Below, piece after piece: positions 1 to 60,498 of a DNA stretch of 64,000 bases. Source of the stretch: the human T2T-CHM13v2.0 reference genome, Homo sapiens. A program made the position numbers and the translations under genes. The notes under the pieces were generated by a model. That model had not been told where the DNA came from, did no database searches, and saw nothing but the letters and a program-made list of their open reading frames with translations. The DNA lies in NCBI RefSeq assembly GCF_009914755.1, contig NC_060935.1; one strand, 5' to 3'. Position 1 is the stretch's first letter; each line of letters opens with the position of its first letter.

Positions 1-1687
<1,687 letters not shown>

Positions 1688-35600: not shown

Positions 35601-38600
35601 CAGGCCTCAGTGTGCTCCCAGGTATCTCTTTGCAGATTCTAGGAATAAAGTGTTTCCAAGCTGCTGAATGGAAAGAAACGTTTAATTCTGTGAGATGAAT
35701 AAACACATCACAAAGCTGTTTCTGAAATAGCTTCCTTTTACTTTTTGTCCTGATATAATTACCTTTTTGCCTTTGGCCTCATTAAGCTCCCAAATGTCCC
35801 TTTGCAGCTTCTACAACAGTGTTTCCATCTGCTTAATCCAAAGAAAGGTTTAACTCAGTGAGATGAATGCACACACCTCAAAGCAGTTTCTGAGAAAGCT
35901 TCTTTCTAGTTTATATCTGAAAATATTGCCTTTTTCACCATAGGATACTAGGTGCTCCCGAATAACCCTTCATGGATTCTGCCAAAACAGTGTTTCCAAA
36001 CAACATTAGAAAATCAAGGTTTATCTCTGTGAGGTGAATGCACACATCACAAAATGGTTTCTCAGATAGCTTCCTTCTAGTATTTATCCTGGGATATTCA
36101 CTTTTTCTCCATTGGCCTCAATGAGCTCCCAAATGTCCATTCGCAGAATGCACAGAAACAGTGTTTACAAATGGCTGAATCCACAGAAAGTTTTATTTCT
36201 GTAAGGGGAAAGCACATGTCACAAAGCAGTTTCTCAGAAACATTCTTTCTAGTTTTTTTCTCATGATATTTCCTTTTTCGCCATAAGCTTCAAAGCACTC
36301 CCAGATATTGCTTTGCAGATCCTACAAAAACAGTGTTTCCAAACTGCTGAATGAAAGGAAAGGTTTAAATATGCGAGATGAATGAACACATCACAAAGTA
36401 GTTTCTCAAATAGCTTCCTTCTAGTTTTTATCCTGGGATATTCACTTTTTTGCTATTGGCCTCAATGAGCTCACAAATACCCCTTTGCAGATTCTACAAC
36501 AACAGTGTTCCCAAACTGCAGTATCCAGAGAAATATTTAACTCGGTGAGAGGAATGTACACATCACAAAGCAGTTTCTCCGAAAGCTTCTTTCTAGTTTT
36601 TATCTGAAGATATTTCCTTTTTCACCACAGGCCTCAATGCACTCCCACATATCCCTTCACAGATTCTACAAAAACAGTGTTTCCAAACTGCTGAAAAACA
36701 GAAAGGTTTAACTCTGCAAGATGAATGCACACATCACAAAGCAGTTTCTCAAATAGCTTCCTTTTAGTTTTTCTTGGAATATTCACTTTTTTGCCATTGG
36801 CCTTAATGTGCTCCAAAATGTCCATTCACAGAATGGACAACAACAGTGTTTGCAAACTGCTCTATCCAAAGAAAAGTTTATCTCTGCAGGATGAATGCAC
36901 ACATCACAAAGTTGTTTCTCACAAAGCTTCTTTCAAGTTTTTGTCTGAAGATATTTCCTTTTTTATCATAGGCCTCTATGCGATCCTAAATTATCCCTTC
37001 ATGGATTCTACCAAAAGTGTGTTTCCAGACTGCTGAATGAAAGGAAAGGTTTATCTCTGTGAGGTTAATATACTCATCACAAAGTGGTTTCTCAGTTAGT
37101 TTCCTTCTAGTTTTTATCCTGGGATATTCACTTTTTCACCATTGGCCTCAATGAGCTCCCAAATGTCCATTCTCAGAATAGACAAAAACAGTGTTTGCAA
37201 ATGGCTGAATCCAAAGAAAGGTTTAATCCTTTGAGATAAATTAACACGTCACAAAATAGTTTCTCAGAAAGCTTCTATTTTTTATATGAAGATATTTCCT
37301 TTTTCACCATAGGCCACAATGTGCTGCCAAATATCCCTTCATAGATTCTATAAAAACTATGTTTAGAAACTGCCGAATGAAAATAAAGGTTTTGAATCTG
37401 CGAGTTGAATGAACACGTCAAAAAGCAGTTTCTCAGATAGCTTAATTCTAGTTTTTATCCTAGGATATTCACTTTTTTGCCATTGCCTCAATGACATCCC
37501 AAATGTCCATTTGCAGAATGGACAAAAACAGAGTTACCAAACTACCGAATACAAAGAAAGGTTTAACTCTGTGAGATGAGTGCACACATGCCAAACCAGT
37601 TTCTCAGTAAGCTTCTTTCTAGTTTTTATCTGAATGTATTTCCTTTTTCACCACTGGCCTTAATATGCTTCCAAATATCTCTTCACAGATTATAAGAAAA
37701 CAGTGTTTCCTAACTGCCAAATGAAAAGAAGATTTAACCCTGTGAGATGAATGCACACATCAAAAATCATTTTCTCAGATAACTTCCTTCTAGTTTTTAT
37801 CTTGGGATATTTGCTTTTTCACCATTGGCTGCAATAAGCTCCCAAATGTCCATTCTGCAAAAACAGTGTTTCTAAACTGCTGAATTCAAAGAAAGGTTTA
37901 ACTCTGTGAGATTAATGAACATACCACAAAGCAGTTTCTCAGAAAGCTTCTTTCTAGTTTTTATCTGAAGATAATTCCTTTTTCACTGTAGGCCCAAATG
38001 CGCTGCCAAATATCCTTTTGCTGATTCTACAAAAACAATGTTTCCAAACTGCTGAATGAAAAAAAAGGTTTAATTCTCCTGGATGAATGCACACATCACA
38101 AAGCAGTTTCTCAGAGAGCTTCCTTCTAGTTTTTATCCTGGGATATTTGCTTTTTCGCCTTTGACCTCAATAAGCTCCCAAATGTCTTGTTGCATAATCC
38201 ACAAAAACAGTGTTACAAAACTGCTGAGTCAAAAGAAAGTTTTAACTCTGTGAGATGAATCCACACATCCCAAACCAGTTTCTCATTAAGCTTCTTTCTA
38301 GTTTTCACCTGAAGATATTTTCTTCTTCACCATTGACCTCCATACTCTTCCAAATATCTCTTTGCAGATCCTAAGAAAACCGTGTTTCCAAACTGCTGAA
38401 TGAAGAGAAAGTTTTACCTCTGTGAGACGAATGCACACATCACAAATTGGTCTCTCAGATAACTTTCTTCTAGTTTTTAACCAGGGATATTCGCTTTTTC
38501 TCCATTGGCATAAATGAGCTCCCCAAATGTTCATTCGCAGAATGAACAAAAACAGTAATTCCATACTGTTCAATGAAATAAAGTTTTAGCTCTCTGAGAC

Positions 38601-41291
38601 AAGTGAACACATCACAGGGCAGTTTCTAAGAAAGCTTCTTTCTAGTTTTTATCTGAAAATATTTCCTTTTTCACCATAGGCCTCAATGCACTGCCAAATA
38701 TCCTTTCGCATAGTCTACAAAAACAGTGTTTCTATACTGCTGAATGAATAGAAATATTTAACCCTGAGCGATGAATGCACACATCACAAAGAAGATTCTC
38801 AGATAGCTTCCTTCTGGTTTTTATCTTGGGATATTCCCTTTTTTGCCATTGGCCTCAGTGAGCTCCCAAATGTCCATTCTCAGAATGGACAAAAACAGTG
38901 TTACCAAACTTCTGAATTGAAAGAAGACTTTAACTCTCTGAGATGAATGCACACATCCTAAAACCAATTTCTTATTAAGCTTCTTTCCAATTTTTATCTG
39001 AAGCAATTTCCTTTTTCACCATAAGACTCAATATGCTACCAAATACCTCCTTGCAGATTCTAAGAAAACAGTGTTTCCAAACTGCTGAATGAAAAAAAAG
39101 ATTTAAACCTGTTAGATGTATGCACACATCACAAATCAGTTTCTCAGATAACTTCCTTCTAGTTTTTATCCTGGGATATTCTGTTTTTCACCATTGGCCT
39201 CAATGAGCTCCCAAATGTCCATTCTGCAAAAACAGTGTTGCCAACCCCTGAATTCAAAGAAAGGTTTTACTCTGTGAGATGAATGAACACATCACAAAGC
39301 AGTTTTTTGGAAAGCTTCTTTCTAGTTTTTATCTGAAGATATTTCCTTTTTCACCATAGGCCTCAATGTACTTCCAAGTGTCCTTTTGCAGATTCTACAA
39401 AAACAGTGTTCCCAAACTGCTGAATGAAAAGGAAGATTTATCTCTGCTAGATAAATGCACACATCACAAAGCAGCTTCTCAGAGAGCTTCCTTATAGTTT
39501 TTATTGTGGGATATTTTCTTTTTGGCCTTTGGCCTCAATGAGCTCCCAAATGTCCATTCGCAGAATGGGCAAAAACAGTATTATGAAACTGCCGAATCAA
39601 AAGAAAAGTTTAAGTCTGTGAGATGAATGCAGACATCCCAAACTAGTTTCTCATTAAGCTTCTTTCTAGTTTTGATCTGAAGATATTTCCTCTTTCACCA
39701 CAGGACTCAATGCACTAGCAAATAGCTCTTTGCAGATTCCAAGAAATCAGTGTTTCCAAGCTGCTGAATGAAAAAAAAAAAAAGATGTAAGTCTGTGAGG
39801 TGAAAGCGCACATCAAAAATCAGTTTCTCAGATAACTACTTTCTCATTTTTATCCAGGATTATCACTCTTTTGCCATTGGCCTCAATGAGTTCCCAAATG
39901 TCCATTCCCAGAATGGGCAAAAAAAGTGTTTGCAAAATCCTGAATCCAAAGAAAGGTTTATCTCTGTGAGATGAATGAATACATCACAAAGCAGTTTCTC
40001 ATTAAGGTTCTTTCTAGATTTATCTTAAGATATTTCCTTTTTCACCATAGGCCTCAATGTGCTGCAAAATATCCCTTTGCCGATCCTACAAAAGCAGTAT
40101 TTCCAAACTGCTGAATGAGAAGAAAAGTTTAACTCTTCGAGTTGATTGCACACATCACAAAGCGGTTTCTCACATAGCTTCCCATTCTCGTTTTTATCCT
40201 GGGATATTTGCTTTATCGATATTGACATCAATGAGCTTCAAAGTGTCCATTCACAGAATGCATGAAAACAGTGTAATCAAACTTCTGAATCCAAAGAAAT
40301 GTTTAACTCTCTGTGATGAATGCACACATCCTTAGCCACTTTCTCATTAAGCTGCTTTCCAGTTTTTATCTGAAGATATTTCCTTTTTCACCATTGGCCT
40401 CCATACTCTACCAAGTATCTCTTCGCAGTTTCTAAGAAAACAGCTTTTCCAAAGTGCTGAATGAAAAGAAATGTTTAACTCTCTGAGATGAATGGACACA
40501 TCACAAATCGGTTTCTCAGATAACTCTCTTCTAGTTTTTACCCTGGGATATTCGCTTTTTTGCATTGGCCTCAATGAGCTCCCAAATGTCAATTCTGTGA
40601 AAACAGTATTTCCAAACTCCTGAATCCAAAGAAAGATTTAACTCTGTGAGTTGAATGAACACATCACAAAGCATTTTCTGAGAAAGCTTCTTTCTAGTTT
40701 TTATCTGAAGATACTTCCTTTTTCACCATAGGCCTCAGAGGGTTACCAAATATCCCTTTGCAGATTCTTCAAAACAGTGTTTCTTAACTGCTGAAGGAAA
40801 AGAAAGGTTTTGACTCTGTGAGATGAATGCACAAATCACAAATTGGTTTCTCAGATAGATTCCTTATAGTTTTTATCCTGGGATATTAGCTTTTTCTCCA
40901 ATGGCCTCAATGAGCTCCCAAATATCCACTCTGCAAAAACAGTTTTTCCAAACTGCTGAATCCAAAGAAACGTTTAACCCTGTGAGATGAATGCACACAT
41001 CACAAATCAGTTTCTCATACAACTTCCTTCCAGTTTTCATCCTGGGATATTCCCTTTTTCACCATTGGCCTCAATGAGCTCCCAAAAGTCCATTCACAGA
41101 ATGGACAAAAACAGTGTTACCAAACTGCTGAATCTTAAGAAAGGTTTCAGTCTTTGGGAGGAATGCATACATCACAAATCAGTTTCTCATTAACCTTCTT
41201 TCTAGTTTTTATCTGAAGATATTTCCTATTCAGCTTAGCCCTCAATGCACTAACAAATATCTTTTCACAGATTCTAAGAAAATAGTGTTTC

Positions 41292-41501
41292 CAGGAAGGG
41301 GAACAACACACTCCGGGGACTGTTGTGGGGTGGGGGGAAGGGGGAGGGATAGCATTAGGAGATATACCTAATGTTAAATGACGAGTTAATGGATTCAGCA
41401 TGCCAACATGTCACATGTATACATATGTAACAAACCTGCACATTGTGTACATTTACCCAAAAACTTAAAGTATAATAATAATAAAACAAACAAACAAAAA
41501 A
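41292..41501 (+). mobile_element. Short 5'-truncated L1PA4-like LINE-1 3' end (~210 bp) with an 18-bp TSD
   Basis: CAGGAAGGGGAAC...TGTTGTGGGGTGGGGGGAAGGGGGAGGGATAGCATTAGGAG...AAACTTAAAGTATAATAATAATAAAACAAAC. TSD AAGAAA(A/G)TAGTGTTTCCA at 41276-41293 and 41502-41519 (17/18). CA microhomology at the 5' junction. Confidence 0.96.
41327..41349 (+). other. G-rich tract of the L1 3'UTR with G-quadruplex potential
   Basis: GGGG-T-GGGGGG-AA-GGGGG-A-GGG: four runs of at least 3 G with short loops. Confidence 0.7.
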
Positions 41502-44500
41502 AAGAAAGTAGTGTTTCCAAACTGCTGAATGAAAAGAAATGTTTAACTCTGCGAGATGAATGCACTCATCACAAAGTGGTTTGTCACAGACTTCCTGGTA
41601 GTTTTCATCCTGGGATATTCGTTTTTTCACGATTGGCCTCAATGAGCTCACAAATATCCATTTGCAGAATCGATAAAAACAGTTATACCAAACTGCTTAA
41701 TTAAAAGGAATGTTTAACTCCTGAGTTGAATGAACACATCGCAAAGCAGTTTGTCAGAAAGCTTCTTTCTAGTTTTTATCTGAAGATATTCCCTTTTTCA
41801 CCTTAGACCTTAATGTGCTGCCATATATCCCTTTTCAGATTGTGCAAAAATAGTTTTTGCAAACTACTGAATATAAAGAATCATTTAATCTGTGAGATGA
41901 ATGCCTATATCACCAAGCAGTTTCTCACAGAGCTTTCTTCTAGTTTTAATCCTGGGATATTAACTTTTTTGCCATTGGCCTCAATGACCTCCCAAATGTC
42001 CATTCAAAGATTGAACAAAAACAGTGTGACCAAACTGCTGAATACAAAGAAAGGTTTAACCCTCTGAGATGAATGCATACATCCAAAACCAGTTTCTCAT
42101 ATGTATTTTTTCTAATTTTTAACTAAAGATGTTTCATTTTTCAACCATAGGCACCCATACACTTCTAAATGTCTCTTCACAGATTGTAAGAAAACAGTGT
42201 TTCCAAACTGTGAATCAAAAGAAAGTTTTAACTATGTGAGATGAATGCACACATCACAAATTGGTTTCTCAGACAACATCTTTCTAGTTTTTAACCTGGG
42301 ATATTCACTATTTTGCCATTGGCCTCAATGAACTCCCAAATGTCCATTCCCAGAATGGACAAAACCAGTGTTTCCAAACTGCTGAATCCAAAGAAGGTTT
42401 AACTCTGTAAGATGAAAGCATGCAACCCAAACGAGTTTCTCATTAAGATTATTTCCAATTTTTTTCTGAGGATATTTCCTTTTTCACCATAGGCTACAAT
42501 GTAGTACAAAATATCTCTTCTCAGATTCTTAGAAATCAGTGTTTTCAAACTGTGGAATGAAAAGAAAAGTTTAACTCTGTGAGATGAATGCGCACATCAC
42601 AAAGCTGTTTCTCAGATAGATTCCTTGTAGTTTTTATCTTGGGATATTTGCTTTTTTGCCATTGACCTCAATGAGCTCCCAAAAAACCATTTGCAGAATG
42701 GACAAAAAAATTGTTACCAAAAGGCTGAATCCAAAGAAATGTTTAATTCTGAGAGATGAATGCACACATCTTAAAGCAGTTTTCATTAAGCTTATTTCTA
42801 GTTTTTAATCTGAAAGAATTTCGTTTTTCAACATAGGACTCAATGGGCTATCAAATATCTCTTTGCACATTCTAAGAAAACAGTTTTTCCAAACTGTTGA
42901 AAGCAAAGAAAGTTTTAACCCTGTGAGATGAATGCACACATCACAAACTGGTTTCTCAGATAACTGCTTTTTAGTTTTTATCCTAGGATAATTGCTTTTT
43001 CACCATTGGCCTCAATGAGCTATCAAATGTCCATTCCCAGAATGGACAAAAACAGTGTTTCCAAACTGCTGAATCCAAAGAAAGTTTCATCACTATGAGA
43101 TGAATGTATACATCACAAATCAATTTCTTAGATAAATTTCTTCCAGTTTTTATCCTGGGATATTCTCTTTTTCAACATTGGCCTCAATTAGCTCCCAAAT
43201 GTCCATTCACAGAATGGACAAAAACAGTGTTTCCAAACTGCTGAATTCAAAGAAAAGTATAACTCTGTGAGATGAAAGAATACATCACAAAGCAGTTTCT
43301 CAGAAAGCTACTTTCTAGTTTTTATGTGAAGTTATTTCCTTTTTCACTGTAGATCTCAACACGCATCCAGATATCTTTCACAGTTTCCAAACTACTGAAT
43401 GAAAAGACAAGTTTAATTCTGCTGGATTAATGCACACATCAAAAAGGGGATTCTCAGATTGCTTCCTTCTATTTTTAATCCTGGAATGTTTACTTTTTTG
43501 CCATTGGCCTCATTGAGCTCCCAAATGTCCATTCACAGAATGGACAAAAACACTGTTACCAAACTGCTGAATCTAAATAAAGCTTTAAGTCTGTGAGATA
43601 AATGCCCACAACTCAAACGAGTTTCTCATTATGCTTCTTTCTAGTTTTTATCTGAAGATATTTCCTTTTTCACCATAGGCCTCAATGTGCTACAAAATAT
43701 CTCTTCACAGATTCTAAGAAATCAGTGATTCCAAACTGCTGAATGAAAAGAAAGGTTTAATTCTGTGAGATGAATGCACACATCATGAATCGGTGCTCAG
43801 GTAACTTGCTTCTAGTTTTTATCCTGGGATATTCACTTTTTTGCCATTGGCCTCAATGAGCTCCCAAATGTCCATTCACAGAATAGACAAAAACAGTGTT
43901 TCCAAGCTGCTGAATCCAAAGAAGGTTTAACTCTGTGAGATGAAATAACACAACCCAAATGAGTTTCTCATTAAGCTTCTTTCTAGTTTTTATCTGAGGA
44001 TATTTCCTTTTTCACCACAGGCCACAATGTGGTAGAAAATATCTCTTCTCAGATCCTTAGAAATCAATGTTTTCAAACTGCTGAATGAAAAGAAAGGTTT
44101 AACTCTGTGAGATGAATGCACACATCATGAATTGGTTTCTCAGACCACTTCCTTCTAGTTTTCATCCCGGGATATTCGCTTTTTTGCCATTGCCCTCAAT
44201 GAAGTTCCAAATATGCATTCCAAGAATGGATAAAAACAGTGTTTCCAAACAGTGAATGAAAAGAACGGTTTGACTCTGTGAGATGAATGCACACAACACA
44301 AAGCAGTTTCTCAGAAAGCTTCTTTCTAGTTTTTCTCTGAAGATATTTCCATTTTCACCATAGGCCTCAATGCGCTGCCAAGTATCCCTTTGCAGATTCT
44401 ACAAAAACAGCGTTTCCAATCTGCTGAATGAACAGATACATTTAACTTTGTGAAATGAATGCACACATCACAAAGCACTTTCTCAGAGAGCATCCTTCTA

Positions 44501-47500
44501 ATTTTTATAATCGGATATTTGCTTTTTCACCATTGGCCTCAAATACCTTCAAAACCTCCATTCACAGAATGGACAAAAGCAGGGTTACCAAACTGCTGAA
44601 TCCAAAGAAAGGTTTAACTCTGTGAGATGAATGCATGCAATGCAAATGAGTTCCTCATTAAGCTTCTTTCTAGTTTTTATCTGAAGACATTTCCTTTTTC
44701 AACATAGGCCTCAATGGACTACCAAATATCTCTTTGAGGATTCTAACAAATGAGTGTTTCCAAACTGCTGAATGAAAAGAAAGCTTAAACTCTGTATGAT
44801 GAGTGCACACATCATCAATCAGTTTCTCAGATAACTTGCTTCTAGTTTTTATCCTGGTATATTTGCTTTTTTGCCACTGGCCTCAATGCGTTCCCAAATG
44901 CCCATTCCAAGAATGGACAAAAACAGTGTTTCCAAACTACTGAATCCATAGAAAGTTTTAGCTCTGTGAGATGAATGAACACTTCACAAGGCAGTGTCTC
45001 AGAAAGCTTCTTTCTAGTTTTTCATTGAAGTTATTTCCTTTTTCACCATAGGCCCCCATACTCTTCCAACTATCTCTTTGCACATTCTAAGAAAATAGTT
45101 TTTCAAAACTGCTGAATTAAAAGAAAGTTTTAACTCTGTGAGAAAAATACACCCATGAAAAGTAGGTTTCCCAGATAACTTCCCTCTAGGTTTTATCCTG
45201 GAATAATTGCCTTTTCATCATTGGCCTCAATGAGCTCCAAAATGTCCATTTGCAGAATGCACAACAACATTGTTTCCAAACTGCTGAATCCAAAGCAAGG
45301 TTTAACTCTGTGAGATGAATGAACACATCACAAAGAGGTTTCTCAGAAAACTTCTTTCTAGTTGTTTTCTGAAGGTATTTACTTTTTCACCATAGGCCTC
45401 AATGGGCTGCCAAATATCCTTTCACAGTTTCTACAAAAACAGTGTTTCCAAAGTGCTGAATGGAAAGAAAGGTTTAACTCTGCTAGATGAATACACACAT
45501 CACAAACGTGTTTCTCAGATAGCTTCCTTCTAGTCTTTATCCTGGGATATTCACTTTTTTGCCATTGGCATCAATGAGCTCTCAAACGTCCATTCACAGA
45601 ATGGACAAAAACAGTTACCAAACTGCTGAATCCAATCAAAGGTTGCAGTCTGTGAGATGAGTACACACAATCCAAGTGAGTTTCTCATAAATATTCTTTC
45701 TAGTTTTTATCTGAAGATATTTCCTTTTTCAACATAAGTCTCAATTTGCTACCAAGTATCCCATCTCAGATTCGAAGAAATCAGTGTTTCTGAACTGCTG
45801 AATGAAAAGAAATGTTTAAAACTGAGAAGAATGCACACCACTCAAATCAGTTCTCAGATAATGTCCTTCTAGTTTTTAATCCAGGTATGTTCACTTTTTT
45901 GCCATTGGCCTCTAAGAGTTCCCTAATGTCCATTCCCAGAATGGACAAAAACCGTGTTTACAAACTCCTGAATCCAAAGAAAGCATAACTCTGTGAGATA
46001 AATATCCATGTCACAAAGCAGTTTCTGAGAATGTCTATTTCCAGTTTTTTCCTGAAGGTATTTCCTTTTTCAACAAAGGCCTCAATGAGCTGCCAAATAT
46101 CCCTGCACAGATTCTACAAAAACAGTGTTTTCAAAATATTGAATGAAAAGAAACGTTTAATTCTGTGAGATGAATGCACACATCACAAAGCAGTTTCTCA
46201 GATAGCTTCCTTCTAGTTTTTATGCTGGGAAATTCACTTTCTTGCCATTGACCTCAATGAGCTCCTAAATGTCCATTCACAGAATGGACAAAGACAGTGT
46301 TACCAAACCGCTGAACCCAAAGTAAGTTTTAACTCTCTGAGATGAATGCACACATCCCAAACCACTTGCCCCTTAAGCATCTCTGTAGTGGTTACTGGAT
46401 GACATTTTGTTTTTCACCATAGGCCTCCTTACCCTTCCAAATATCTCATTGTAGATTCTAAGAAAACGGTGCTTCCAAACTGACGAATGAAAGGAAAGTT
46501 TTAACTCTGTGAGATGAATGCACACATCACAAATCGGATTCTCAGATAACTTCCTCTAGGTTTTGTCCAGGGATATTCACTTTTTCGCCATTGACATCAA
46601 TGAGCTCCAAAACGTCCATTCACAGAATGGAAAAAAACGATGTTATCAACCTGCTGAATCCAAACAAAGTTTTAACTCTGTGAGATGAATGAACACATCA
46701 AAATTCAGTTTCTCAGACCACTTCTTTCTAGTTTTTATCTGAATATATTTCCTTTTTCACCTTAGGCCTCAATGCACTGCCAAATATCCGTTTGTAGATA
46801 CTACACAAACTGTGTTTCCAAACTGCTGAATGAAAAGAAAGTTCTAAGCCTGTGAGATGAATGCACACATCAGAAAGCAGTTTCTTAGATTGCTTCCTTT
46901 TAATGTTTATCCTGGTATATTCTCTTTTTCACCATGAGCCCCAATGATTTCCCAAATGTCCATTCCAAGAATGGACAAAAACAGTGTTTTCATATTCCTG
47001 AATCCAAAGAAAGATTTAACTCTGTGAGATGAATTAACATATCACTAAGTAGTTTCTCAGACAGCTTCTTACTAGTTTTTATCTGAACATATTGCTTTTT
47101 CACCCTAGGCCTCAATGGACTGCCAAACATCCTTTTGCAGTTTCTACAAAAACAGTGTTTCTAAACTGCTGAATGAAAGGAAAGGTTTAACTCTGCTAGA
47201 TTAATGCACACATCATAAAGGGGTTTTTCAGAAAGGTTCCTTCTAGTTTTAATCCTGGGATATTCTCTTTTTCACCACTGGCTTCAATGAGCTCCCAAAT
47301 GTCCATTTACAGAATGGACAAAAACAGTGTTACCAAACTGCTGAATCCAAACAAAGTTTGAAGTCTGTGAGACGAATGCACACAACACAAAAGAGTTTCT
47401 CATAATGCTTCTTTCTAGTTTTCATTTGAAGTTATTTCCTTTTTCACCCTAAGTCTTAATGCACTACCAAATATCTCTTCAAAGCTTTGAAGAAATCAGT

Positions 47501-50500
47501 GTTTCCAAACTGCTGAATGAAAAGAAAGGTTTAACACTGTGAGATGAATACACCCATCACAAATAGGTTTCTCAGATAACTTCCTCTAGTTTTTATCCCA
47601 GAATATTTCCTTTATTGCTATTGGCCTCAAAGAGATCCCAAATGTCCATTCCAAGAATGGACAAAAACAGTGTTTCCAAACTGCTGAATTCAAAGAAAGG
47701 TTTAACACTGTGAGGTGAATGAACACATTGCAAAGCAGTTAATCAGAAAGCTTCCTTCTACTTTTTATCTGAAGATATTTCTTTTTCAACATAGGCCTCA
47801 AGGCACTGCCAAATATCCTTTTGCAGTTTCTACAAAAACAATGTTTCCAAAGTACTGAATGAAAGGAAAGTTTTAACTCGGCTAGAAGAATGCACACAAC
47901 ACAGAGCAGCCTCTTAGATAGCTTCCTTCTAGTTGTTATCCTGGGTTATTCGCTTTTTTGCCATTGGCCTCAATGAGCTCCCAAATGTCCATTCACAGAG
48001 TGCACAAAAACAGTGTTACCAAACTGCTGAATCCAAATAAAGGTTTAACACTTTGAGATGAATGCACACATCCTTAACCAGTTTCTCATTAAGCTTCTTT
48101 CTAGTTTTTACTTGAAGATATTTCCTTTTTCACCATAGGCTGGAATGCACTACCAAATATCTCTTTGCAGATTCTAAGAAAACAGTGTTTCCAAACTGCT
48201 GAATGAAAAGAAAGTTTTAACTCTGTGAGATGAATGAACACGGTATAAATCGATTTTTCAGATGGGTTCCTTCTGGTCTTTATCCAGAGATATTCGCTTT
48301 TTCACCATTGGCCTCTTTGAGCTCCCAAATGTCCATTCGCGTAATGGACAAAATCAGTGTTTCCAAACTGCTGAATCCAAAGAAAGATTTAATTCTGTGA
48401 GATGAATGAACACATCACCAAGCAGTTTCTCAGACAGCCTCCTTCTAGTTTTTATATGAAGATGTTTCTTTTTTCACCCTAGGCCTCAATGAGCTGCCAA
48501 ATATCCTTTTGCAGTTTCTACAAAAACAATGTTTCCAAAGTGATGAGTGAAAAGAAAGGTTTAAATGTGCTGCAGGAATGTGCACATCACAAACGGCTTT
48601 TTCAGATAGCTTCCTTCTAGATTTTATCCTGAGCTATTTGCTTTTTCACCATTTGCCTTAATGAGCTCCCAAATGTCCATTCACAGAATGGACAAAAACA
48701 GTGTTACTAAACTGTGAATCCAAAGACATGTATAAGTCTGTGAGCTGAATGCACACATCACAAACCAGTTTCTAATTAAGCTTCTTTCTAGTTTTTATCT
48801 GAAGATATTTCCTTTTTCAACATAGGCATCCATACTCTTCCAAGCATCTCTTTGCAGATTCTAAGAAAATACGGTTTCCAAACTGCTGAATGAAAGGAAA
48901 GGTTTAACTCTGCGAGATGAATGCACACATCACAAGGGAGGTTGTCACAGACCTTCCTTCTAGTTTTTATCCTGCATATTCCCTTTTTCTCCATTGGCCT
49001 AAATGAGCTGCCAAATGTCCATTCATGGAATGCACAAAAACAGTGTTACCAAACTGCTGAATGCAAACGAATGTTGAAATCTGTGAGATGAATGCACACA
49101 ACACAAGTGAGCATTCCAAACTCATAAAGCTTCCTTGTAGTGTTTATCTGAAGATATTTTCTTTTTCACCATAGGCCTCAATATGCTGCCAAATATTATC
49201 TCGTAGTTTGTACAAAAACACTGTTTCCAAACTGCTGAATGAAAAGAAAAGTTTAACACTGTGAAATGAATGCACACATCCTAAAGCAGTTTATCATTAA
49301 GCTTCTTTCTAGTTTTTATCTAAAGGTATTTGCTATTCATCATAGGCCTCAATGTGCTACCAAATATCTCTGCAGATTTTAAGAAAACAGTGTTTCCAAA
49401 TTGCTGAAAGAAAAAGGTTTAACTCTGTGAGATGAATGCACTCATCACAAATCGGTTTCTCAGATAAATTGCTTTGTCTTTTTTTCCTGGGATATTTGCT
49501 TTTTAGCCATTGGCATCAGTGAGCTCTCAAATGTCCATTTGCAGAATGGACAAAAGCAGTGTTTACAAACTGCTGAATTCAAAGAAAGGTTTAATTCTGT
49601 GAGATAAATGGACACATCATAAAACAGTTTCTCAGAATCCTTTTTTATAGTTTTTATTTGAAGATGTTTCCTTGTTCACCATAGGCCTCAAAACACTGGC
49701 AAATATCCATTCACAGATTCTACAAAAACCGTGTTTCTAAACTGCTGAATGAAAATCAAGTTTTAACTCCGCTAGATGAATGCACACATAACAAAGCAGT
49801 TTCTCAGATAGCTTCCTTTTAGTTTTTACACTGGGATAATTGCTTTTTCCCCATTGACCTCAATGAGCTTCTAAATGTCCATTTGCAGAATGGACAAAAA
49901 CAGTGTTACCAAACTGCTGAATCCAAAGGAAGTTTTAACACTGTGAGATAAATGCACACATCCCAAACTAGTTTCTCATTAAGCTTCTTTATAGTTTTTA
50001 ATTGAAGATATTTCCTTTTTCCCCCTAGGCCTCAATGCACTATCAAATATCTCTTCAGAGATTCTAAGAAATAAGTGTTTCTAAACTGCAGAATCCAAAG
50101 AATGGTTTAACCCTGTGAGATGAATGAACACATCACAAAGCAGCTTCTCAGAAAGCTTGTTTCTAGTTTTTATTTGAAGACATTTCTTTTTTCTCCATAG
50201 GCCTCAGTGCAATGCAAAGTATCCTTTCACAGTTTCTCCTAAAACAGTGTTTTCAAACTCCTGAATGAAAAGAAATTTTTAACTCTGTGAGATGAATGTA
50301 CACATCACAAAGCTGTTTCTTGAATAGCTTCCTTCTAGTTTTTGTCCTGAGGTAATAACTTTTTTGCCTTTGGCCTCATAAACTCCCAAATATCCCTTCA
50401 CAGATTCTACAACAACAGGTTTTCCAAACTGCTGAATCCAAAGAAATTTTTAAATCTGTGAGATGAATGCACACACCACAAAGCAGTTTCTCAGAAAGTT

Positions 50501-53500
50501 TCTTTCTAGTTTTTATCTGAAGATATTTCCTTTTTCACCATAGGCCTCAATGCACTCCAAAATAAAACTTTGCAGATTCTACAAAAACAGTGTTTCCAAA
50601 CTGCTGAATGAATGCAATGGTTTAAATCTGAGAAATGAATGCACACATCACAAACCGGTTTGTCAGATAGCTTCTTTCTAGATTTCTTTTTCCTGGGATG
50701 TTCGCTTTTTTGTTTTTGACCTCTATAAGCTCCCAAATATCCCTTTGCAGATACTACAACAGCAATGTTTCCAAACTGCTGAATCCAAAGAAAGGTTTAA
50801 AACTGTGCAATGAATGCACAGATCACAAAGCAGTTTCTTAGATAGCTTGTTTCTAGTTTTATCTGAAGATTTTCGTTTTTTATCTGAAGATATTTCATTT
50901 TTCACCACAGGACTCAATGCGCTCCCAAATATCTCTTCTCGGATTTTATGAAAAGAGTGTTTCTGGACTGCTGAATGAAAAGAAAGGTTTATCTCGGCAA
51001 GACGAATGCACACATAACAAAGCAGTTTCTCAGATAGCTTTCTTCTAGCTTTTATCCTGGGGTATTCACTTTTTCGCTATGGGAAAAAGGACCTCCAGAA
51101 AGCCCATTCACAGAATGGACAGAAACAGTGTTTGCAAACTGGTGCATCCACAGAAAGGTTTATCTCTGTGAGATGAATGCACACAACACAGGGCAATTTC
51201 CCAGAAAGCTTCTTGCTAGTTTTTATCTGAAGATATTTCCTTTTTCACCAGAGGCCTCAATGCACTCCAAAATGTAACTTCGCAGATTCTACAAAAACAG
51301 TGTTTCCAAACTGCTGAATGAAAACAATGATGTAGCTCTGTGAGATGATTGCACACATCACAAAGCTGTTTCTCAGATAGCTTCCTTTAGGTTTTTTTTT
51401 CTGGAATATTTGCTTTTTCATCTTTTGCCTCAGTGAGTTCCCAAATATCCCTTCACAGGTTGTACAACAGTGTTCACAAACTGCAAAAGGCAAAAAAAGT
51501 TTTAACTCTGTGAGATGAATGTACACATCATAAAGCGGTTTCTCAGATAATTTCCATCTAGTTTTTTTTTCTGGGATATTCACTTTCTTGCCTATTACAT
51601 CATTAAGCTCCAAATTTACCTTCGCAGATTGTACAACAGGGTTTCCAAACTGCTGCAACCACACAAAGGTTTAACTCTGTTAGACGAATGCACATATCAC
51701 AAAGCTGTTTTTCAGAAAACTTCCTTCTAATTTTTTCTGAAGATATTTCCTTTTTTGCCATAGGCCTCAATGCACTCTCAAATATCCCTTCGCGGATTCT
51801 GCCAAAACAGTGTTTCTGGACTGCTGTATGGGAAGAAAAATTTATCTCTGAGAGATGAATGCACACATCACAAAGCAGTTTCTCAGGGAGCTTCCTTCTC
51901 GTTTTAGTCCTGGGATATTCACTTTTCCACCTTTGACTTTTATGAGTTCCCAAATATCCATTCTGTGAATGGACAAAAACAGTGTTTGCAAACTGCTAAT
52001 TCCACAGACATGTTTAATAATGTGAGATGAAAGCACACATCACAAAGAAGTTTCTCAGAAAGCTTCTTTCTAGTTTTTATTTGAAGATATTTCCTGTTTC
52101 ACCATAGGCCTCAATGCATTCCCAAATATTCCTTCAGAGATTCTGCAAAAACAGTGTCTCCAAACTGCTGAAGGAAAAGAAAGGTTTAACTCTACCAGAC
52201 GAATGCACACATCACAAAGAAGTTTCTCAGATAGCTTCCTTCTAGTTTTGATCCTGGCATATTTGCTTTTTCAACATTGGCCTCAATGAGCTCCCAAACT
52301 TCCATTAGTAGGATGGACAAAAACAGTTTTTGCAAACTGCTGATACCACAGAAACCTTTACCTCTATGAGATGAATGTAAATATCACAAAGCAATTTCTC
52401 AGAAAGCTCCTTTCTACTTTCTATCTGGAGATATTTCCTTTTTCACCATAGGCCTCATTGCGCTCCCAGATATAACTACAGAGATTCTACGAAAACAGTG
52501 TTTCCACACTGCATAATGAAATGAAAGGTTTAACTCTCCGAGGTAAATGCACACATCCCAAAGCACTTACAAAGCTTCTTTCTTGTTTTTATCTGAAGAT
52601 ACTTCCTTTTTCACCATAGGCCTCAATGCATTCTGAAATATCCCTTCTTGGATTCTGCCAAAACAGTGTTTCCACACTGCTGAATGAAAAGAAAGCTTTA
52701 ACTTGGTGAGGTGAATATGCACAAAATGGTTTCTCAGACAGCTTCCTTTTAGTTTTGACCCTGGGATATTCACTTTTTCACCACTGGCCCCAATGAGCTT
52801 CCAAATACCCCTTCACAGTTTCTACAACAAGTGTGTTTCCAAACTGCTGAATCCAAAGAAATGTTTAACTCTGTGAGATGAATGCACACATCACAAAGCA
52901 GGTTCTCAGAAAGCTTCTTTCTAGTTTTTATCTGAAGATATTTCCTTTTTCACCATAGGCCTCTATGAACTCCCAAATATCCCTTCATGGAATCTGCCAA
53001 AACAGTGTTTCCAGACTGCTGAATGAAAAGAATATATCTGCGAGGTGAATGCACATGTCACAAAGCCATTTCTCAGAAAGCTTCTTTCTAGTTTTTATAC
53101 GAAGATATTTCCTTTTTCACCATAGGCCTCAAAGCTCTCCCAGATATCCCTTCGCAGATTCTATGAAAACAGTGTTTCTAAACTACTGAAAGAAATGAAA
53201 GGTTTAACTGCCCGAGATGAATGCACACATCACTAAGTGGTTTCCCAGATAGTTTCCTTCTAGTTTCTATCCTGGGATATTCAATTTCTCATCATGGGTC
53301 TCAATGAGCCCCCAAATATCACTTTGCAGATTCTACAACAGTGTTTCCAAACTAGGGAATCCAAAGAAAGTGTTAACTCTGTGAGATGAATGCACACATC
53401 ACAAAGCAGTCTTTCAGAAAGCTTCTTTCTAGTATTTATCTGAAGATATTTCTTTTTTCACCATAGGCCTCTATGCACTCCTAAACATCCATTCCCAGAT

Positions 53501-56500
53501 TCTGCCAAAACAGTGTTTGCAGACCGTTGGATGGAAAGAATAGTTTGTCTCTCAGATATGAATGCACACATCACAATGCAGTTTCTCAGAGTGCTTCCTA
53601 CTACTTTATATCCTGGGATATTCACTGTTTTACCATTGGCCTCAATGAGCTCCCAAATGCCCATTTGCACAATGAAGATAAACAGTATTGGAATATGGCT
53701 GAATACACACAAAGGTTTAACTCTGTGAGTTGAATGTACACATCACAAAGCAGTTTCTCAAAATGCTTCTTTCTAGTTTTTATCTGGGGTTATTTCCTTT
53801 CTCACTATAGACCTCAGGGCACTCCCAGATATCACTTCGCAGATTCTATGAAAACAGTGTTTCCAAACTGCTGAATGAACAGAAAGGTTAACTCTGTGAG
53901 ATGATTGCACACATCACAAAGCAGTTTCTCAAGTATCTTCCCTCTTGATTTTATCATAGGATATGCCCTTTTTCTCCATTGATCTGAAAGATTTCCCAAA
54001 CGTCCATTCACAGAATGGACAAAAACAGTGTTTGCAAGCTACTGAAAACACACAAAGGTTGAGCTCTGTGAGAGGAATGCACACATCACAATGGAGTTTC
54101 TCAGAAAGCTTCTTTCTAGTTTTTATCTGAAGATATTTCCTTTTTCACCTTAGGCCTCAATGCACTTTCAAATATCCGTTTGCACATATTACACAAACAG
54201 TGTTTCCAAACTGCTGAATGAAAAGAAAGTTTTAAGCCTGTTAGATGAATACACACATTACAAAGCCATTTCTCAGATTGCTTCTTTCTAATCTTTATCC
54301 TAGTATATACACTTTTTCACCATGGGCCTCAATGAGTTCCCAAATATCCATTGCAAGAATGCACAAAAACAGGGTTTCGATAATACTGAATCCAAAGAAA
54401 GATTTAACTCTGTGAGATGAATGAACACATCTCTAAGTAGGTTCTCAGACAGCCTCTTACTAGTTTTTATCTGAACCTATTCCTTTCTCACCCTAGGCCT
54501 CAATGGGCTGCCAAACATCCTTTTGCACCTTCTACAAAAACAGTGTTTCCAAACTGCTGAATGAAAAGAAAGGTTTAACTCTGTGAGATGAATGCACACA
54601 TCAGAAAGCAGTTTCTCAGATTGCTTCCTTCCACTTTTTTTCCTGGGATATTTGCTTTTTTACAATTGGCCTTAGTAAGCTCCTAAATTTCCCTTTACAA
54701 ATTCTAAAACAACAATGTTTCCAAACTGCTGAATGGAAAGAAAGTTTTAGTACTATGAGATGAATGCACACATCACACATCAGTTTCTCAGAACGGTTCT
54801 TTCTAATTTTTATCTAAAGATATTTCCTTTTCATCACAGGCCTCAATGAACTCCCAAATACCCGTTCACACATTCTGCCAAAACAGTTTTTCCACACTGC
54901 TAGACGAAAAGAATGTTTTATCTGTGGGAGGTGAATGCACACATCACAAAGCGGTTTCTTAGATAGCTTCCTTATATTTTTAATCCTGGGATATTCGCTT
55001 TTTCACCATTGGCCTCAATGAGATCCCAAATGTCCATTTGCGGAGTGAATAAAAATATTGTTTGCAAACTGCTGAACCCACAGAAAAGTTTAACTCTGTG
55101 AGATGAATGCACACATCATCACAAAGCAGTTTCACAGAATGCTTCTTTCCATTTTTTATCTGAAGGTGTTTCCTTTTTCACCATAGGCCTCACTGTGGTC
55201 CCAGATATCCCTTTGCAGATTCTACAACAACTTTGTTTTCCAACTGCTGAATGCAAAGAAAGGTTTAACAATGTGAGATGAATGCACACATCACAAAGTA
55301 GTTTCTCAGAAAGCTTCTTTCTTGTTTTTGTCTAAAGATATTTGCTTTTTTACCACAGGCCTCTAAGCGTTACTAAATATCCCTTCACGGATTCTACCAA
55401 AAGAGTGTTTCCAGACTGCCGAATGAAAAGAAAGGTTTATCTCTGCAAGGTGAATGCACACATCACAAAGTGGTTTCTCAGTTAGCTTCCTTCTGGTTTT
55501 TATCCTGGGATATTTGCTTTTTCACCATTGGCCACAATGAGCTCCCAAGTGTCCATTCGCAGAATGGACAAAAACAGTGTTTGCAAATGACTGAATCCAC
55601 AAAACGGTTTAGTTCTGTGAAGTGAAAGCAAACGTCATATGGCAGTTTCTCAAAAATCTTCTTTCTAGTTTTTTTCTGAAGATATTTCCTTTTTCACCAT
55701 AGGCCTCAATGTGCTCCCAGATATCCCTTCGAAGATTCTACAAAAACAGTGTTTCCAAACTGCTGAAAGAAAAGAAAAGTTTAACTCTGCAAGATGAATG
55801 CACACATCACAAAGCCGTTTTTCAAATAGCTTCCTTCTAGTTTTTATCCTGGGATGTTCTCTGTTTCACCTTTGGATTCACTGTTCTCCCAAATATCATT
55901 TTCCAGATTCTACAACAGCAGTGTTTCCAACTGCAGAATCTAAAGAAAGGTTTAGCTCTGTGAGATTAATTGACACAGCACAAAGCAGGTTCTCAAAAAG
56001 TTTCTTTCTAGTTTTTATCTGAAGATATTTCCTTTTTCACCATAGGCCTCAATGTGCTCCCAGATATCCCTTCACAGATTCTATGAAAACAGGCTTCCCA
56101 GACTGCTGAACAAAAAGAAAGGCTTAACTCTGGGAGATGAATGCACACATCACAATGTAGTTTCTCAAATACATTCCTTCTAGTTTTTATCCTCAGATTT
56201 TTGCTTTTTTGCCTTTGGGCTCAATGAGTTCCCAAATATCCCTTCACAGATTCTACAACAGTGTTTTTCCAATGCTGAGAACAAAGAAAGCTTTATCTCT
56301 GTGAGATGAATTCACACATCACAAAGCAATTTCTCAGAATGCTTCTTTCTAGTTTTATTGGAAGATTATTCCTTTTTCACCTTAGGTCTCAATGCGCTCC
56401 CAAATATCCCTTCAGGGATTCTGCCATAACGGTGTTTCCAGATTGCTGAATGAACAGTAAGTTTTATTTCTGTGAGGTGAATGCACACATCACATAGCTG

Positions 56501-59500
56501 TTACTCAGATAGTTTCTTTCGAATTTTTATCCTGGGATACTGGCTTTTTGCCATTGGCCTCAAAGGTCTCCCAAAAATTCCTTCACAGATTCTACAACAA
56601 CAGTGTTTTCAAATTGCTGAATCCACAGAATGGTTTAAATCTGTGAGGTGAATGGATACATCCCAAGGAAGTTTCTCAGAAAGCTTCTTTGTAGTTTTTT
56701 TCTGAAGATACTCCCTTTTTCACCTTAAGCCTCAAAGCACTCCCAAATATCACTTTGAAAATTCTATGAAAACAGTGTTTCCAAACTGCTCAATGAAAAG
56801 AAAGGTTTATCTCTGTGAGATGAATGCACACATGACAAAGAAGTTTCTCAGAAGGCTTCTTTCTTGTTTTTATCTGATGATATTTCCTTTTTCATCGTAG
56901 GCCTCAATGCACTCCCAAATATCCCTTCACGGTTTCTGTCAAAAGAGTGTTTCCAAACTGCTGAATGAAAAGGAAGGTTTATCTCTGCAAGGTGAATGCA
57001 CCCATCACAAGGTGCTTTCTCAGAGAGCTTCCTTCTCGTTTTTATCTTGGGATATTCACTTTTTTGCCATTAGCCTCAATGAGATCCCAAGTGTCCCTTC
57101 ACAGATTCTACAATGACAGTGTTTTTCCAACTGCTGAAACCAAAGAAAGGTTGATCTCTATGAGATGAATGCACACATCACAAAGCAGTTTCTCAGAAGG
57201 CTTCTTTCTAGTTTTTATCAGAAGATATTTCCTTTTCCGCCATAGGTCCCAATGTGCTCCCAAATATCCCTTCAGGGATTCCGCCATAACAGTGTTTCCA
57301 GATTGCTGAATGAAAAGTAAGTGTTACTTCTGTGAGGTGAATGCACACATCACATAGCTGTTACTCAGCTTCTTTCGAATTTTTATCCTAGGATACACTC
57401 TTTTCTGTCATAGGCCTCAAAGGGCTCCCAAATATTCCTTCACAGATACTACAACAACAGTGTTTTCAAATTGCTGATTCTGCAGAATGGTTTAACTCTG
57501 TGAGGTGAATGGACACATCCCAGAGAAGTTTCTCAGAAAGACTCTTTCTAGTTTTTTTTTTTCTGAAGATACATCCTTTTTCACCATATTCCTCAAAGCA
57601 CTCCCAAATATCACTTCGCAGATTAGAAAAAAACAGTGTTTCCAAACTGCTCAATGAAAAGAAAGGTTTAACTCTGCAAAATGAATGCACACATCACAAA
57701 CCAGTTTCTCAAAGAGCTTTCTTCTAGTTTTTGTCCTGTGATATTCCCTCCTTCACCACTGACCTCAATGAGCTCCAGCATATCCCTTCACAGATTCCAC
57801 AACAACAGAGTTTCCAAAATGCTGAACCCAAAGAAAGATTTAACTCCTTGAGACGGATGCACATATCACAAAGCTGTTTCTCAGAAAGCTTCATTATAGT
57901 TTTTATCTGAAGATATTTCCTTTTTCAACATAGGCCCCAATGTGCTCCCAAGTATCCCTTTGGGGATTCTGCCAGAACAGTGTTTCCAGATTGCTGAATG
58001 AAAAGTAAGTTTTACTTCTGCAAGGTGAATGCATACATCACAAAGCTGTTCCTCAGATAGCTTCCTTCTAGTTTTTATCCAGGAATATTCACTTTTATGC
58101 CACTGGCCTAAATGAGCTCTCAAATATCCCTTCACCGATTCGACAACAACAGTATTTCCAAACTTCTGAATCAAAATAAAGGTTTAATTCTGTGAGATGA
58201 ATGCACACATCACAAAGCGGTTTCCCAGAATGCTTCTTTCTACTTTTTATCTGAAGATGTTTCCTTTTTTACCATCAGCCTCAATGCGCTCCCAAATATC
58301 TCTTCGTGGATTCTGCCAAAACAGTGTTTCCAGACATAAGTGTGAAAAGAAAGTTTTACCTCTGCAAGGTGAATGCACACATCACAAAGAGATTTCTCAG
58401 ATAGCTTCTTTCTAGTTTTTATCCTGGGATATTTGCTTTTTCGCCTTTGGCCTCAATGAGCTCCAAAATGTCCATTCACAGAATGGACAAAAACAGTGTT
58501 TCCAAACTGTTGATTCCACAGAAAGTGTTATTTCTATGAGAAGAATGCATACATCACAAAGATGTTTCTAAAATAGCTTCCTTCTTATTTTTTATCCTGG
58601 GAAATTTGCTTTTTTGCCATTGACATCAATGAGCTCCCAAATGTCCATTTGCAGAAAGTACAAAAAACAGTGTTTGCAAACTGTTGAATCCACAGAATGG
58701 TTTAACTCTGTGAGATGAATGTACACATGAGAAAGCAGTTTCTCAGAAAGCTTCTTTCTAGTTTTTGTCTGAAGATATTTCCTTTTACACCATAGGCCTC
58801 ATTGCACACCAAAATATCCCTTCAGGGATTCTGCCAGAACAGTGTTTCCAGATTACTGAATGAAAAGCAAGTTTTACTCTGTGAGTGGAATGCACACATC
58901 ACAAAGTTGTTTCTCAGAGGGCTTCCTTCTAGTTTTTGTCCTTGGATACTGACTTTTTGGTCATTGGTCTCAAAGAGCTCCCAAATATTCCTTTGTGGAT
59001 TCTGCAACAACAGTGTTTTCCAACTGCTGAATCCACTGATGGTTTAACTCTGTGAGGTGAATGCACACGTCACAAAGCAGTTTCTCAGAAAGCTTCTTTT
59101 AGTTTTTTCTGAAGATATTTTCTTTTTCACCATAGGCTTCAAAGCTCTACCATATATCACTTGGCAGATTCTAGGAAAACAGTGTTTGCAAACTGCTGAA
59201 TGAAAAGAAACATTCAATTTTGCAAGATGAATACACACATCACAGAGCAGTTTCTCAAATACCTTCATTCTAGTTTTTATGTTGGGATATTCACTTGTTC
59301 ACAATTGACCTCAAAGAGATCCCAAATATCCTTTTGCAGATTCTACAACAACAGTGTTTCCAAACTGCTGAATCCAAAGAAATGTTTCACTCTATGAAAT
59401 GAATGCACACGCCAGAAAGAAGTTTTTCAGAAAGATTCTTTCTCGTTTTTATCTGAAGACATTTCCTTTTTCACCATAGGCTTCAATGTGTTCCTTTATA

Positions 59501-60498
59501 TCCCTATGCAGATACTATGAAAACAATGTTTCCAGACTGCTGTGTTAAAAGAAAAGTTTAACTCTGCGAGATGAATGCACACATCACAAAGCCGTTTCTC
59601 ACATAGATTCCTTCTAGTTTTTAAACTGAGATATGTGCCTTTTTGCCATTCACCTCAAAGAGCTCCCAAATGTCCATCTGCAGATTCTATAACAACAGTG
59701 TTTCCAAATTGCTGAATCAAAAAACAGATTTAACTCTGTGAGATGAGTGCACACATCACAAAGCTGTTTCTCAGAATGCTTCTTTCTAGTTTTTATCTGA
59801 AGATATTTCCTTTTTCACCATAGGCCTCAATGCACTCCCAAGTATCCCTTCACAGTTTCTGCCAAAACAGTGTTTCCTGACTGCTGTTGAAAAAGAATAT
59901 TTTAACTCTGCAGGGTGAACGCACACATCACAGAGCAGTTTCTCAAATAGCTTCATTCTAGTTTTTATCCTGGACATTCTCTTTTTCACCATCGGTCCCG
60001 ATGAGCTCCCAAATGTTCATTCACAAAATGGAAAAAAACAGCGTTTGCAAACTGCTGAATCCAGAGAAATGTTTAACTCTGTGAGATAAATGCACACATC
60101 ACAAAGCAGTTTCTCAGAAAGATTCTTTCTAATTTTCATCTGAGCATATTTCCTTTTTCACCTTAGGCATCTATGCTCTCCCAAATATCACTTTGCAGAT
60201 TCTGCCAATGCAGTGTTTCCAGACTGCTGTTGGGAAAGAATGTTTTAACTCTTTGAGGTGAATGCACACATCACAAAGCAGTTACTCAGATATCTTCTTA
60301 CTAGTTTTTATCCTGGGATATTCTGTTTTTCACCATTGGCCTCAATAATATCCCATATATCCATTCACAGGTTCTACAACAGTGTTTGCAAACTGCTGAA
60401 TCCACAGAAAGTTGTAAATCTGTGATATGAATGCAAAGATCACAAAGCAGTTTCCTCAAAAGCTTCTTTCTAGTGTTTATCTGAAGATATTTCCTTTT

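What the first reader, a model, noticed from the sequence alone, without database searches (positions are those of the whole stretch)
54146..54530. ~385-bp satellite patch copied in register from 46758-47140 into a different sub-family domain
Seen: a run of private variants is shared at an offset of 7,388 bp (43 monomers) at both ends of the patch: CACCTTAGG, AAATATCCGTTTG, TACACAAAC, TAAGCCTG, CACCATG.GC, CAAGAATG, CTAAGTAG, CAGACAGC.TCTTACTAG, TCTGAAC.TATT, CACCCTAGG, GCCAAACATCCTTTTGCA. The patch carries markers of the 37-50 kb sub-family, while its flanks belong to the other sub-family, and monomer phase is unbroken. Inference: a long-range, old gene conversion tract with donor 46.8 kb and recipient 54.1 kb. 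This would be a second conversion footprint in the window.
Basis: partly seen in the sequence, partly recalled or inferred. Interest (0 to 1): 0.7.

Follow-up and report, generated by a model that had tools for sequence, protein, structure and literature searches.

The report
Fossil satellite patch in dead centromere
Beside the centromere of human chromosome 11, a stretch of about 400-480 bases of ancient repeat DNA is a 90%-identical match to a stretch 7,400 bases away and belongs to that other block's repeat subtype; it is likely a leftover of a copying event roughly 25-30 million years ago, of a kind that is common in this old repeat layer.

Summary
All 11 motifs pair at lag 7,388. The matched tract is 46724-47195 with 54109-54583, 89-90% identical against about 79% background, and it beats both shuffle nulls. 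The flanks fall to 76%. In trees the two copies are sisters (SH-aLRT 99) inside the 37-50 kb sub-family X, while both flanks of the 54-kb copy group with sub-family Y. No closer donor was found genome-wide, but a third, partial copy lies on chr7 at 64.013 Mb in X context. The array is a 172-bp dimeric dead alpha-satellite layer that matches H1H2/OaNa on every feature I could test. The best reading is an in-register, one-way X-to-Y replacement (conversion-like, 0.6); duplication followed by deletion (0.3) cannot be excluded without ape orthologues. The patch is ordinary for this layer: 12 paired segments lie in the window, 10 in 80 kb of chr7 and 15 between the two, and those measured are 8-14% diverged. 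No pair among 306,936 monomer pairs reaches 93% identity, which suggests that short-range exchange stopped in one ancient epoch.

The parts
54109..54583 (+). Patch B (likely recipient): about 2.8 alpha-satellite monomers of sub-family X type inside domain Y; core marked by shared rare alleles about 54150-54522, outer limits about 54080-54620
46724..47195 (+). Copy A (likely donor, or its nearest surviving sister), inside domain X, 43 monomers upstream
37300..50074 (+). Domain X: 73 monomers of 172-bp dimeric alpha satellite with a hidden 1-3-1-0 four-monomer pattern; has type 3, lacks type 2
50074..60498 (+). Domain Y around the patch: 60 monomers, has type 2, lacks type 3
53680..54108 (+). 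Left flank of B: Y-type, weakly related to monomers at 5173 and 6543; no paralogue above 82% found genome-wide for 53520-54105
54584..55230 (+). Right flank of B: Y-type (type-2 monomer at 54542); no paralogue above 83% found
46950..47159 (+). 3' half of A, shared with a third copy on chr7 (G000:C7:64013099-64013345), which lies in an X-type block

Best explanation
The 54.1-54.6 kb patch is an X-sub-family stretch of dead dimeric alpha satellite, sister to 46.7-47.2 kb and set in register among Y-sub-family monomers, likely left by an ancient one-way, homology-guided replacement (gene conversion or a double template switch during break repair). Shown: sisterhood, bounded tract, X-type content, Y-type flanks, both junctions in monomer register and dimer parity, and no third full copy found. 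Inferred: a break or stalled fork in the Y block invaded an in-phase X monomer 43 units away on the same chromosome or its sister, copied about 2.2-3 monomers and returned to the Y block. This would have happened when random monomers differed by only about 12% (today's array divergence of about 0.24 minus the pair's 0.10-0.12; my arithmetic), near the end of the array's recombining life, roughly 25-30 million years ago. Both copies have since drifted neutrally. No present function is expected.
For: Tract tree: A and B sisters at SH-aLRT 99, nested in a 22-row group (support 93) of 14 X rows, 7 chr7 rows and B. Flank trees put B's left flank with 4 Y rows (96) and its right flank in a 24-row group with no X row (96). 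A and B share 26 rare derived alleles, 12 of them absent from the chr7 copy. The X/Y classifier, trained without A or B, calls both whole monomers of B X-like. The chr7 copy sits among type-3 monomers, so X is the home context. Alternatives score negative: permuted 4-mer and 6-mer circle pieces -14 to -63, target-site duplication -28, same-lag flanks -12 and -36, against +65 for the tract. Both junction zones hold exact-match runs of 16-34 bases, though these are also the conserved parts of the monomer. Age: K2P 0.10-0.12 against 0.072 for L1 pairs in the same region; at the 0.2% per Myr rate of PMC2729386, read as per lineage, this gives about 25-30 Myr, near the 23-26 Myr that paper gives for the layer. 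Conversion between alpha-satellite repeats is described for younger arrays (PMC2853522).
Against: No copy of the recipient site in its former state was found (40 of 5,765 and 27 of 5,453 candidates scored), so replacement is not distinguished from net insertion plus deletion. The same layer is shuffled in pieces of 1-13 monomers between chr7 and chr11, including a 14.4-kb block present on chr11 where chr7 joins window 35.85 kb directly to 50.29 kb, so duplication and deletion were clearly at work. In the 3' half, A-C (91.7%) is as close as A-B (90.8%), and only 3 alleles join A and B against C (1 joins A and C), so the order of the chr7 split and the transfer is weakly resolved there. The left flank's weak kinship with the 5.2-kb block does not resume on the same diagonal to the right of the patch (-10.2). 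Tract edges were chosen by score, which biases divergence down.
Confidence: 0.6

Rival explanations
1. Two-step unequal exchange: an in-register crossover duplicated a longer X segment (up to the whole 43-monomer interval) into domain Y, and later in-register deletions trimmed it to about 3 monomers.
For: Short tandem-duplication relics at lags of 5 and 9 monomers are the two strongest pairs in the window. chr7 and chr11 differ by block-scale gains, losses and reordering. The end product is the same as that of conversion.
Against: It needs at least two events. No other X-type remnant lies between 52.0 and 56.5 kb, and no Y monomer inside domain Y scores like the patch. The flanks are not duplicated around the patch. 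Collapse of a fresh duplication would more easily use the identical copies and erase the trace (inference).
Confidence: 0.3
2. A and B both descend from a third, now lost, X-type donor (a small family of repeats carrying these alleles), so that 46.8 kb was not itself the template.
For: The 3' half has a third member on chr7 and looser relatives at 48356 and chr7:64009194; the three-way divergence of the 3' half is nearly star-like.
Against: A and B match over the whole tract, including 9 derived alleles in the 5' half that the chr7 copy lacks. Two 5'-half patterns match exactly only at A and B genome-wide. Transfer of X sequence into Y would still be needed.
Confidence: 0.08
3. Chance similarity of near-consensus monomers, or an assembly artefact.
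For: A window of 339 monomers gives 57,291 pairs, so some reach 90% (99.9th percentile of same-type identity 89.8%).
Against: Three consecutive monomer pairs score 10, 18 and 31 on shared rare alleles, and 0 of 60 shuffles reach the tract score. A misassembled duplicate would be near-identical, not 10% diverged (inference).
Confidence: 0.02

Closest known systems
Olive-green dimeric dead alpha-satellite layer, H1H2 = OaNa (Shepelev 2009 PMC2729386; Miga and Alexandrov 2021 PMC9549924)
   Same: 172-bp monomers, dimeric alternation, about 79% identity within each monomer class, pJalpha site in one class only, no CENP-B box, L1 insertions, relatives on chromosomes X, 5 and 7.
   Different: Not compared with the published H1/H2 or Oa/Na consensus or HMMs. 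The X and Y sub-families with four-monomer patterns, and the paired patches, were not in the passages I read; Shepelev 2009 mentions sub-layers without my having seen their detail.
Short conversion events in alpha-satellite HOR arrays (Pironon 2010 PMC2853522, citing Schindelhauer and Schwarz 2002 and Roizes 2006)
   Same: Short in-register transfer of variant alleles between non-adjacent repeats, seen alongside unequal crossover.
   Different: Those are young, highly homogeneous HOR arrays (0.2-0.5% sporadic variation), mostly without map positions. Here donor and recipient are mapped, 7.4 kb apart, in different sub-families, and 10% diverged.
Interchromosomal transfer and amplification of centromere layers (PMC2729386, PMC9549924)
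   Same: chr7 and chr11 share a block of this layer at 10-13% divergence.
   Different: Here the sharing is resolved monomer by monomer and is shuffled into pieces of 1-13 monomers.
Segmental duplication
   Same: Paralogous sequence at about 90% identity.
   Different: Under 0.5 kb, both ends in repeat register, flanks unrelated; below the 1-kb length used in the abstracts listed.

Membership tests
H1H2/OaNa dead alpha-satellite layer | 172-bp monomer | tested here: met
   TRF period 172; median spacing 172, dimer 343; Table 1 of PMC2729386
H1H2/OaNa dead alpha-satellite layer | Dimeric arrangement | tested here: met
   First principal component splits two classes; alternation at 301 of 331 adjacent pairs; between-class identity 72%
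H1H2/OaNa dead alpha-satellite layer | Within-type identity about 0.785 (H1) and 0.790 (H2) | tested here: met
   0.791 and 0.781 against Table 3 of PMC2729386
H1H2/OaNa dead alpha-satellite layer | pJalpha site in one monomer of the dimer only; no CENP-B box | tested here: met
   With up to 2 mismatches: 142 of 169 class-0 against 8 of 170 class-1 monomers; CENP-B box 0 of 339 (motifs from PMC5109768; rule from PMC9549924)
H1H2/OaNa dead alpha-satellite layer | Clusters with published H1/H2 (Oa/Na) reference monomers | not testable with these tools
   No reference monomers or HMMs were available; supplements not read
H1H2/OaNa dead alpha-satellite layer | Oldest L1 insertions are L1PA4/PA5 | not tested
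   L1-like insertions differ from each other by 6.9%; subfamily not assigned, and the L1 label rests on my recognition of the sequence
Gene conversion tract | Bounded tract with phylogenetic incongruence against both flanks | tested here: met
Gene conversion tract | Both junctions in homologous register | tested here: met
   0 gaps in 472 columns; class 0 meets class 0 and class 1 meets class 1; weak as a discriminator
Gene conversion tract | Non-reciprocal: donor keeps its own sequence | tested here: met
   A's monomers score X-like (0.0, 3.6, 14.1, 5.6) and A lies in domain X
Gene conversion tract | Replaces an equal length of recipient in one event (no net gain or loss) | tested here: inconclusive
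   No unconverted paralogue found; no ape genomes available
Segmental duplication | At least 1 kb at 90% identity or more | tested here: not met
   Tract 476 bp; flanks 76%
Integrated extrachromosomal circle | Whole number of dimers, with a circularly permuted second piece next to the first | tested here: not met
   4-mer and 6-mer circle pieces score -14 to -63; larger circles not tested

The most novel reading that the evidence does not exclude
Dead alpha-satellite layers keep a readable record of their last recombination events: monomer-scale exchange, including long-range, cross-sub-family and chr7-chr11 transfer, went on until repeats had drifted about 12% apart and then stopped across the layer in one epoch. 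This patch is one dated, polarised tract of that final phase, and a census of such tracts would give the tract length, reach and divergence limit of recombination in a dying primate centromere.
Probability: 0.35. Interest if true: 0.5.

Novelty: new member of a known kind. Interest (0 to 1): 0.3.

Why it matters
On its own the patch is a neutral fossil with no gene or known element near it. Its value is as a mapped example: donor, recipient, direction, length (about 0.4-0.5 kb) and reach (7.4 kb) can all be read, which is rarely possible in homogeneous centromeric arrays. Together with the other paired segments, all 8-14% diverged where measured, it makes a qualitative idea testable: that exchange stops beyond some level of divergence (PMC2853522), and that divergence builds quickly after a centromere dies (PMC2729386). 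With complete ape genomes, the conversion versus duplication-deletion question could be settled directly.

Tried and rejected
1. Kilobase-scale duplication at lag 7,388: rejected, the flanks are at background. 2. Closer donor elsewhere: none found; the best other match is chr7 at 87%, then 82-84%; exact pattern matches occur only at A, B and, for the 3' half, chr7. The BLAST-type searches scored only 40 candidates each. 3. Circle reintegration (4- and 6-monomer) and target-site duplication: negative scores. 4. An unconverted paralogue of the recipient at 5.0-6.7 kb: left flank weakly positive (11.3, 8.9), right flank negative (-10.2, -7.8); not usable. 5. A second donor piece in monomer 54542 (two alleles resemble 46812): whole-monomer score -10.9, rejected. 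6. A transversion-rich 'active array' spectrum in the paired segments: Ts/Tv 1.14 in 10 pooled satellite pairs against 1.33 in 4 L1 alignments, p = 0.40, so no support from the local control, although both are below the value of about 2.3 expected in bioRxiv 10.64898/2026.09.03.749043. 7. A wider survey of the layer on chr11 and chr7 was not possible, so base rates rest on the 64-kb window, 80 kb of chr7 and 41 loci of about 3 kb chosen for likeness to the patch. 8. Rudd et al. 2006 and the journal version of Altemose et al. 2022 were not held. Seven literature searches listed no paper on this patch or on a chr7-chr11 paralogy in this layer; most subscription papers are not covered.

Full report
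Setting. The window is almost all alpha satellite of period 172, with a stronger 343-344 period and several strand switches. An HMM built from window monomers gave 815 hits in the window and 80 kb of chr7; 31 hits with fewer than 140 aligned bases were dropped, leaving 339 window and 445 chr7 monomers. They fall into two alternating classes and four types. Type 3 marks domain X (37.3-50.1 kb, also 7.2-9.8 kb; pattern 1-3-1-0). Type 2 marks domain Y. Of 73 monomers in the main X block none is type 2; of 60 in the Y block from 50.1 to 60.5 kb none is type 3. Monomer length, dimer structure, within-class identity (0.791, 0.781), a pJalpha site in one class only (142 of 169 against 8 of 170) and no CENP-B box (0 of 339) match the olive-green H1H2/OaNa dead layer. 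I had no reference monomers, so this label rests on those features.

The observation. All 11 motifs pair at lag 7,388; 7 are found only at these two places in the window. A scan of all 2,676 monomer diagonals, scoring shared alleles by rarity, gives a tract 46724-47195 / 54109-54583 with score 65.1. It is the third best in the window and the best at a distance over 2 kb. Shuffled maxima were 10-16 (columns) and 35-41 (whole monomers) in 30 replicates each. Among 94 in-phase stretches, A is B's nearest neighbour in the tract (90.9%, mean 78.6%) but ranks 79 of 93 on the left and 67 of 92 on the right.

Polarity. In the tract tree A and B are sisters (SH-aLRT 99) in a group of X and chr7 rows (93); in the flank trees B goes with Y rows (96 and 96). 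A classifier trained without A or B scores B's monomers 54199 and 54371 above every Y monomer of their type (62 and 122 tested). The junction monomer 54027 and the neighbours score Y-like. So X sequence moved into Y. The core marked by shared rare alleles is about 54150-54522. The left edge is uncertain by about 70-100 bases, since two rare alleles are shared further left among Y-like states.

Other copies. Genome searches with A and with B return each other (90%), then chr7:64,012,908 (87%), then 82-84% (40 of 6,616 and 40 of 6,069 candidates scored). Two patterns from the 3' half match exactly at A, B and chr7 only, with no one-mismatch hits. Two patterns from the 5' half match exactly at A and B only. 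Of derived alleles, 14 are shared by all three, 12 by A and B, 2 by A and C, 2 by B and C. But 13 of the 14 lie in the 3' half, where A-C is 91.7%, A-B 90.8% and B-C 88.3%. The chr7 copy is therefore mainly a homologue of the 3' half, and the order of the chr7 split and the transfer is only weakly resolved. The chr7 copy lies among type-3 monomers, which agrees with X as the source.

Mechanism. Both junctions are in register and keep dimer parity, but so do 301 of 331 adjacent pairs in the window. Circle reintegration would leave a permuted second piece, and insertion with target duplication would repeat the flank; both score negative. What is left is a replacement (conversion or double template switch) or a longer duplication later trimmed by deletions. 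Only an unpatched copy of the site could separate these. None was found: flank searches top out at 82% and 83%, and a weakly related block at 5.2-6.7 kb matches on the left only. I put replacement at 0.6 because it is one event and no other X remnant lies nearby, and duplication-deletion at 0.3 because such shuffling is evident in the layer.

Age. At the 0.2% per Myr rate in PMC2729386, read as per lineage (the reading that reproduces their 62 Myr), this is about 25-30 Myr, close to the 23-26 Myr given there for the layer. The date is rough: that paper warns that satellite divergence overstates age, and PMC11062924 reports flanking rates 1.1-4.1 times those of unique DNA. The patch should be shared by all apes; this is untested.

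How ordinary is it. The scan found 12 paired segments with score 18 or more within the window and 15 between the window and chr7, and 10 within the 80 kb of chr7, two of them long-range (587 bp at 9.5 kb; 738 bp at 25 kb). Those measured differ by 7.7-14.3% (7 of 12 window pairs), 8.2-13.5% (6 of 15 chr7-window pairs) and 9.6-13.0% (7 of 10 chr7 pairs). None of 306,936 monomer pairs reaches 93% identity; the maximum is 92.9%. chr7:63.978-64.015 Mb is a shuffled paralogue of the window: 33.6-35.9 kb is followed directly by 50.3-51.5 kb and then by pieces of domain X. Against a strict floor, two chr16 loci are a 99.8% identical inverted pair over 3,369 bases, so large young duplications do carry this layer; the floor can only concern monomer-scale exchange, and it was measured in 144 kb. 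A transversion-rich spectrum was looked for and not supported against the L1 control.

Literature seen. PMC2729386: passages and section 9. PMC9549924: passages and section 16. bioRxiv 10.1101/2021.07.12.452052, PMC4496801, bioRxiv 10.64898/2026.09.03.749043, PMC5109768, PMC2853522 and PMC11062924: passages only. Other papers: search listings and abstract openings only. No supplements were read; the annotation tables of the T2T centromere paper and Text S1 of PMC2729386 may already name this layer, its sub-layers or the chr7-chr11 sharing. Seven searches listed nothing on this patch.

Verdict. A real, old, polarised, in-register transfer of about three monomers between sub-families of a dead centromere layer. 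Conversion-like origin is likely but not shown. It is one of many such relics and has no evident function. Interest 0.3; new member of a known kind.

Noticed in passing
window 29.9-35.9, 45.0-51.5, 59.1-59.4 and 61.0-62.5 kb versus G000:C7:63,978,500-64,014,700 (L021, L023-L026): chr7 holds a shuffled paralogue of much of the window at 10-13% divergence; the longest piece is 2.3 kb (33571-35851). chr7 joins window 35.85 kb directly to 50.29 kb, where chr11 has 14.4 kb including domain X.
   Followed up: partly
window 29867-30876 / 31409-32409 and 56244-56809 / 57094-57670: Two stronger paired segments at lags of 9 and 5 monomers, about 10% diverged; likely relics of local tandem duplication.
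   Followed up: partly
window 36890-37203 / 55279-55589: A second long-range pair (lag 18.4 kb, 313 bp, 9% diverged, score 24.7), 700 bp downstream of the patch, Y to Y.
   Followed up: no
G000:C7:64,035,900-64,036,486 / 64,045,382-64,045,964 and 64,020,805-64,021,538 / 64,046,055-64,046,791 (L026, L028, L029): Long-range in-register patches like the finding, 10% and 13% diverged.
   Followed up: partly
window and chr7, 784 monomers: No monomer pair reaches 93% identity among 306,936 pairs: a possible common freeze of monomer-scale exchange.
   Followed up: partly
window 7.2-9.8 and 37.3-50.1 kb; loci L013, L016, L032, L044, L047, L064, L007: A hidden four-monomer pattern (1-3-1-0) within the dimeric layer recurs on chr7, chrX, chr5 and elsewhere on chr11; the Y sub-family has a looser 1-0-2-0 pattern.
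   Followed up: partly
L014 (C16:32.95 Mb) and L018 (C16:34.49 Mb): The two loci are a 99.8% identical inverted pair over their whole 3,369 bases: a young large duplication carrying this old layer.
   Followed up: no
window 1-1600, 4800-5020, 21.4-24.35 kb, 41.3-41.5 kb: L1-like insertions (label from my recognition of the sequence); pairwise difference 6.9%, Ts/Tv 1.33. Strand switches of the satellite lie near 9.8 and 29.7 kb.
   Followed up: partly
G000:C7:64,013,297-64,013,340 and 64,013,520 onward (L025): The chr7 copy ends in an out-of-register junction (35 extra bases against the chr11 copies), followed about 200 bases later by an Alu-like insertion (label from recognition).
   Followed up: no
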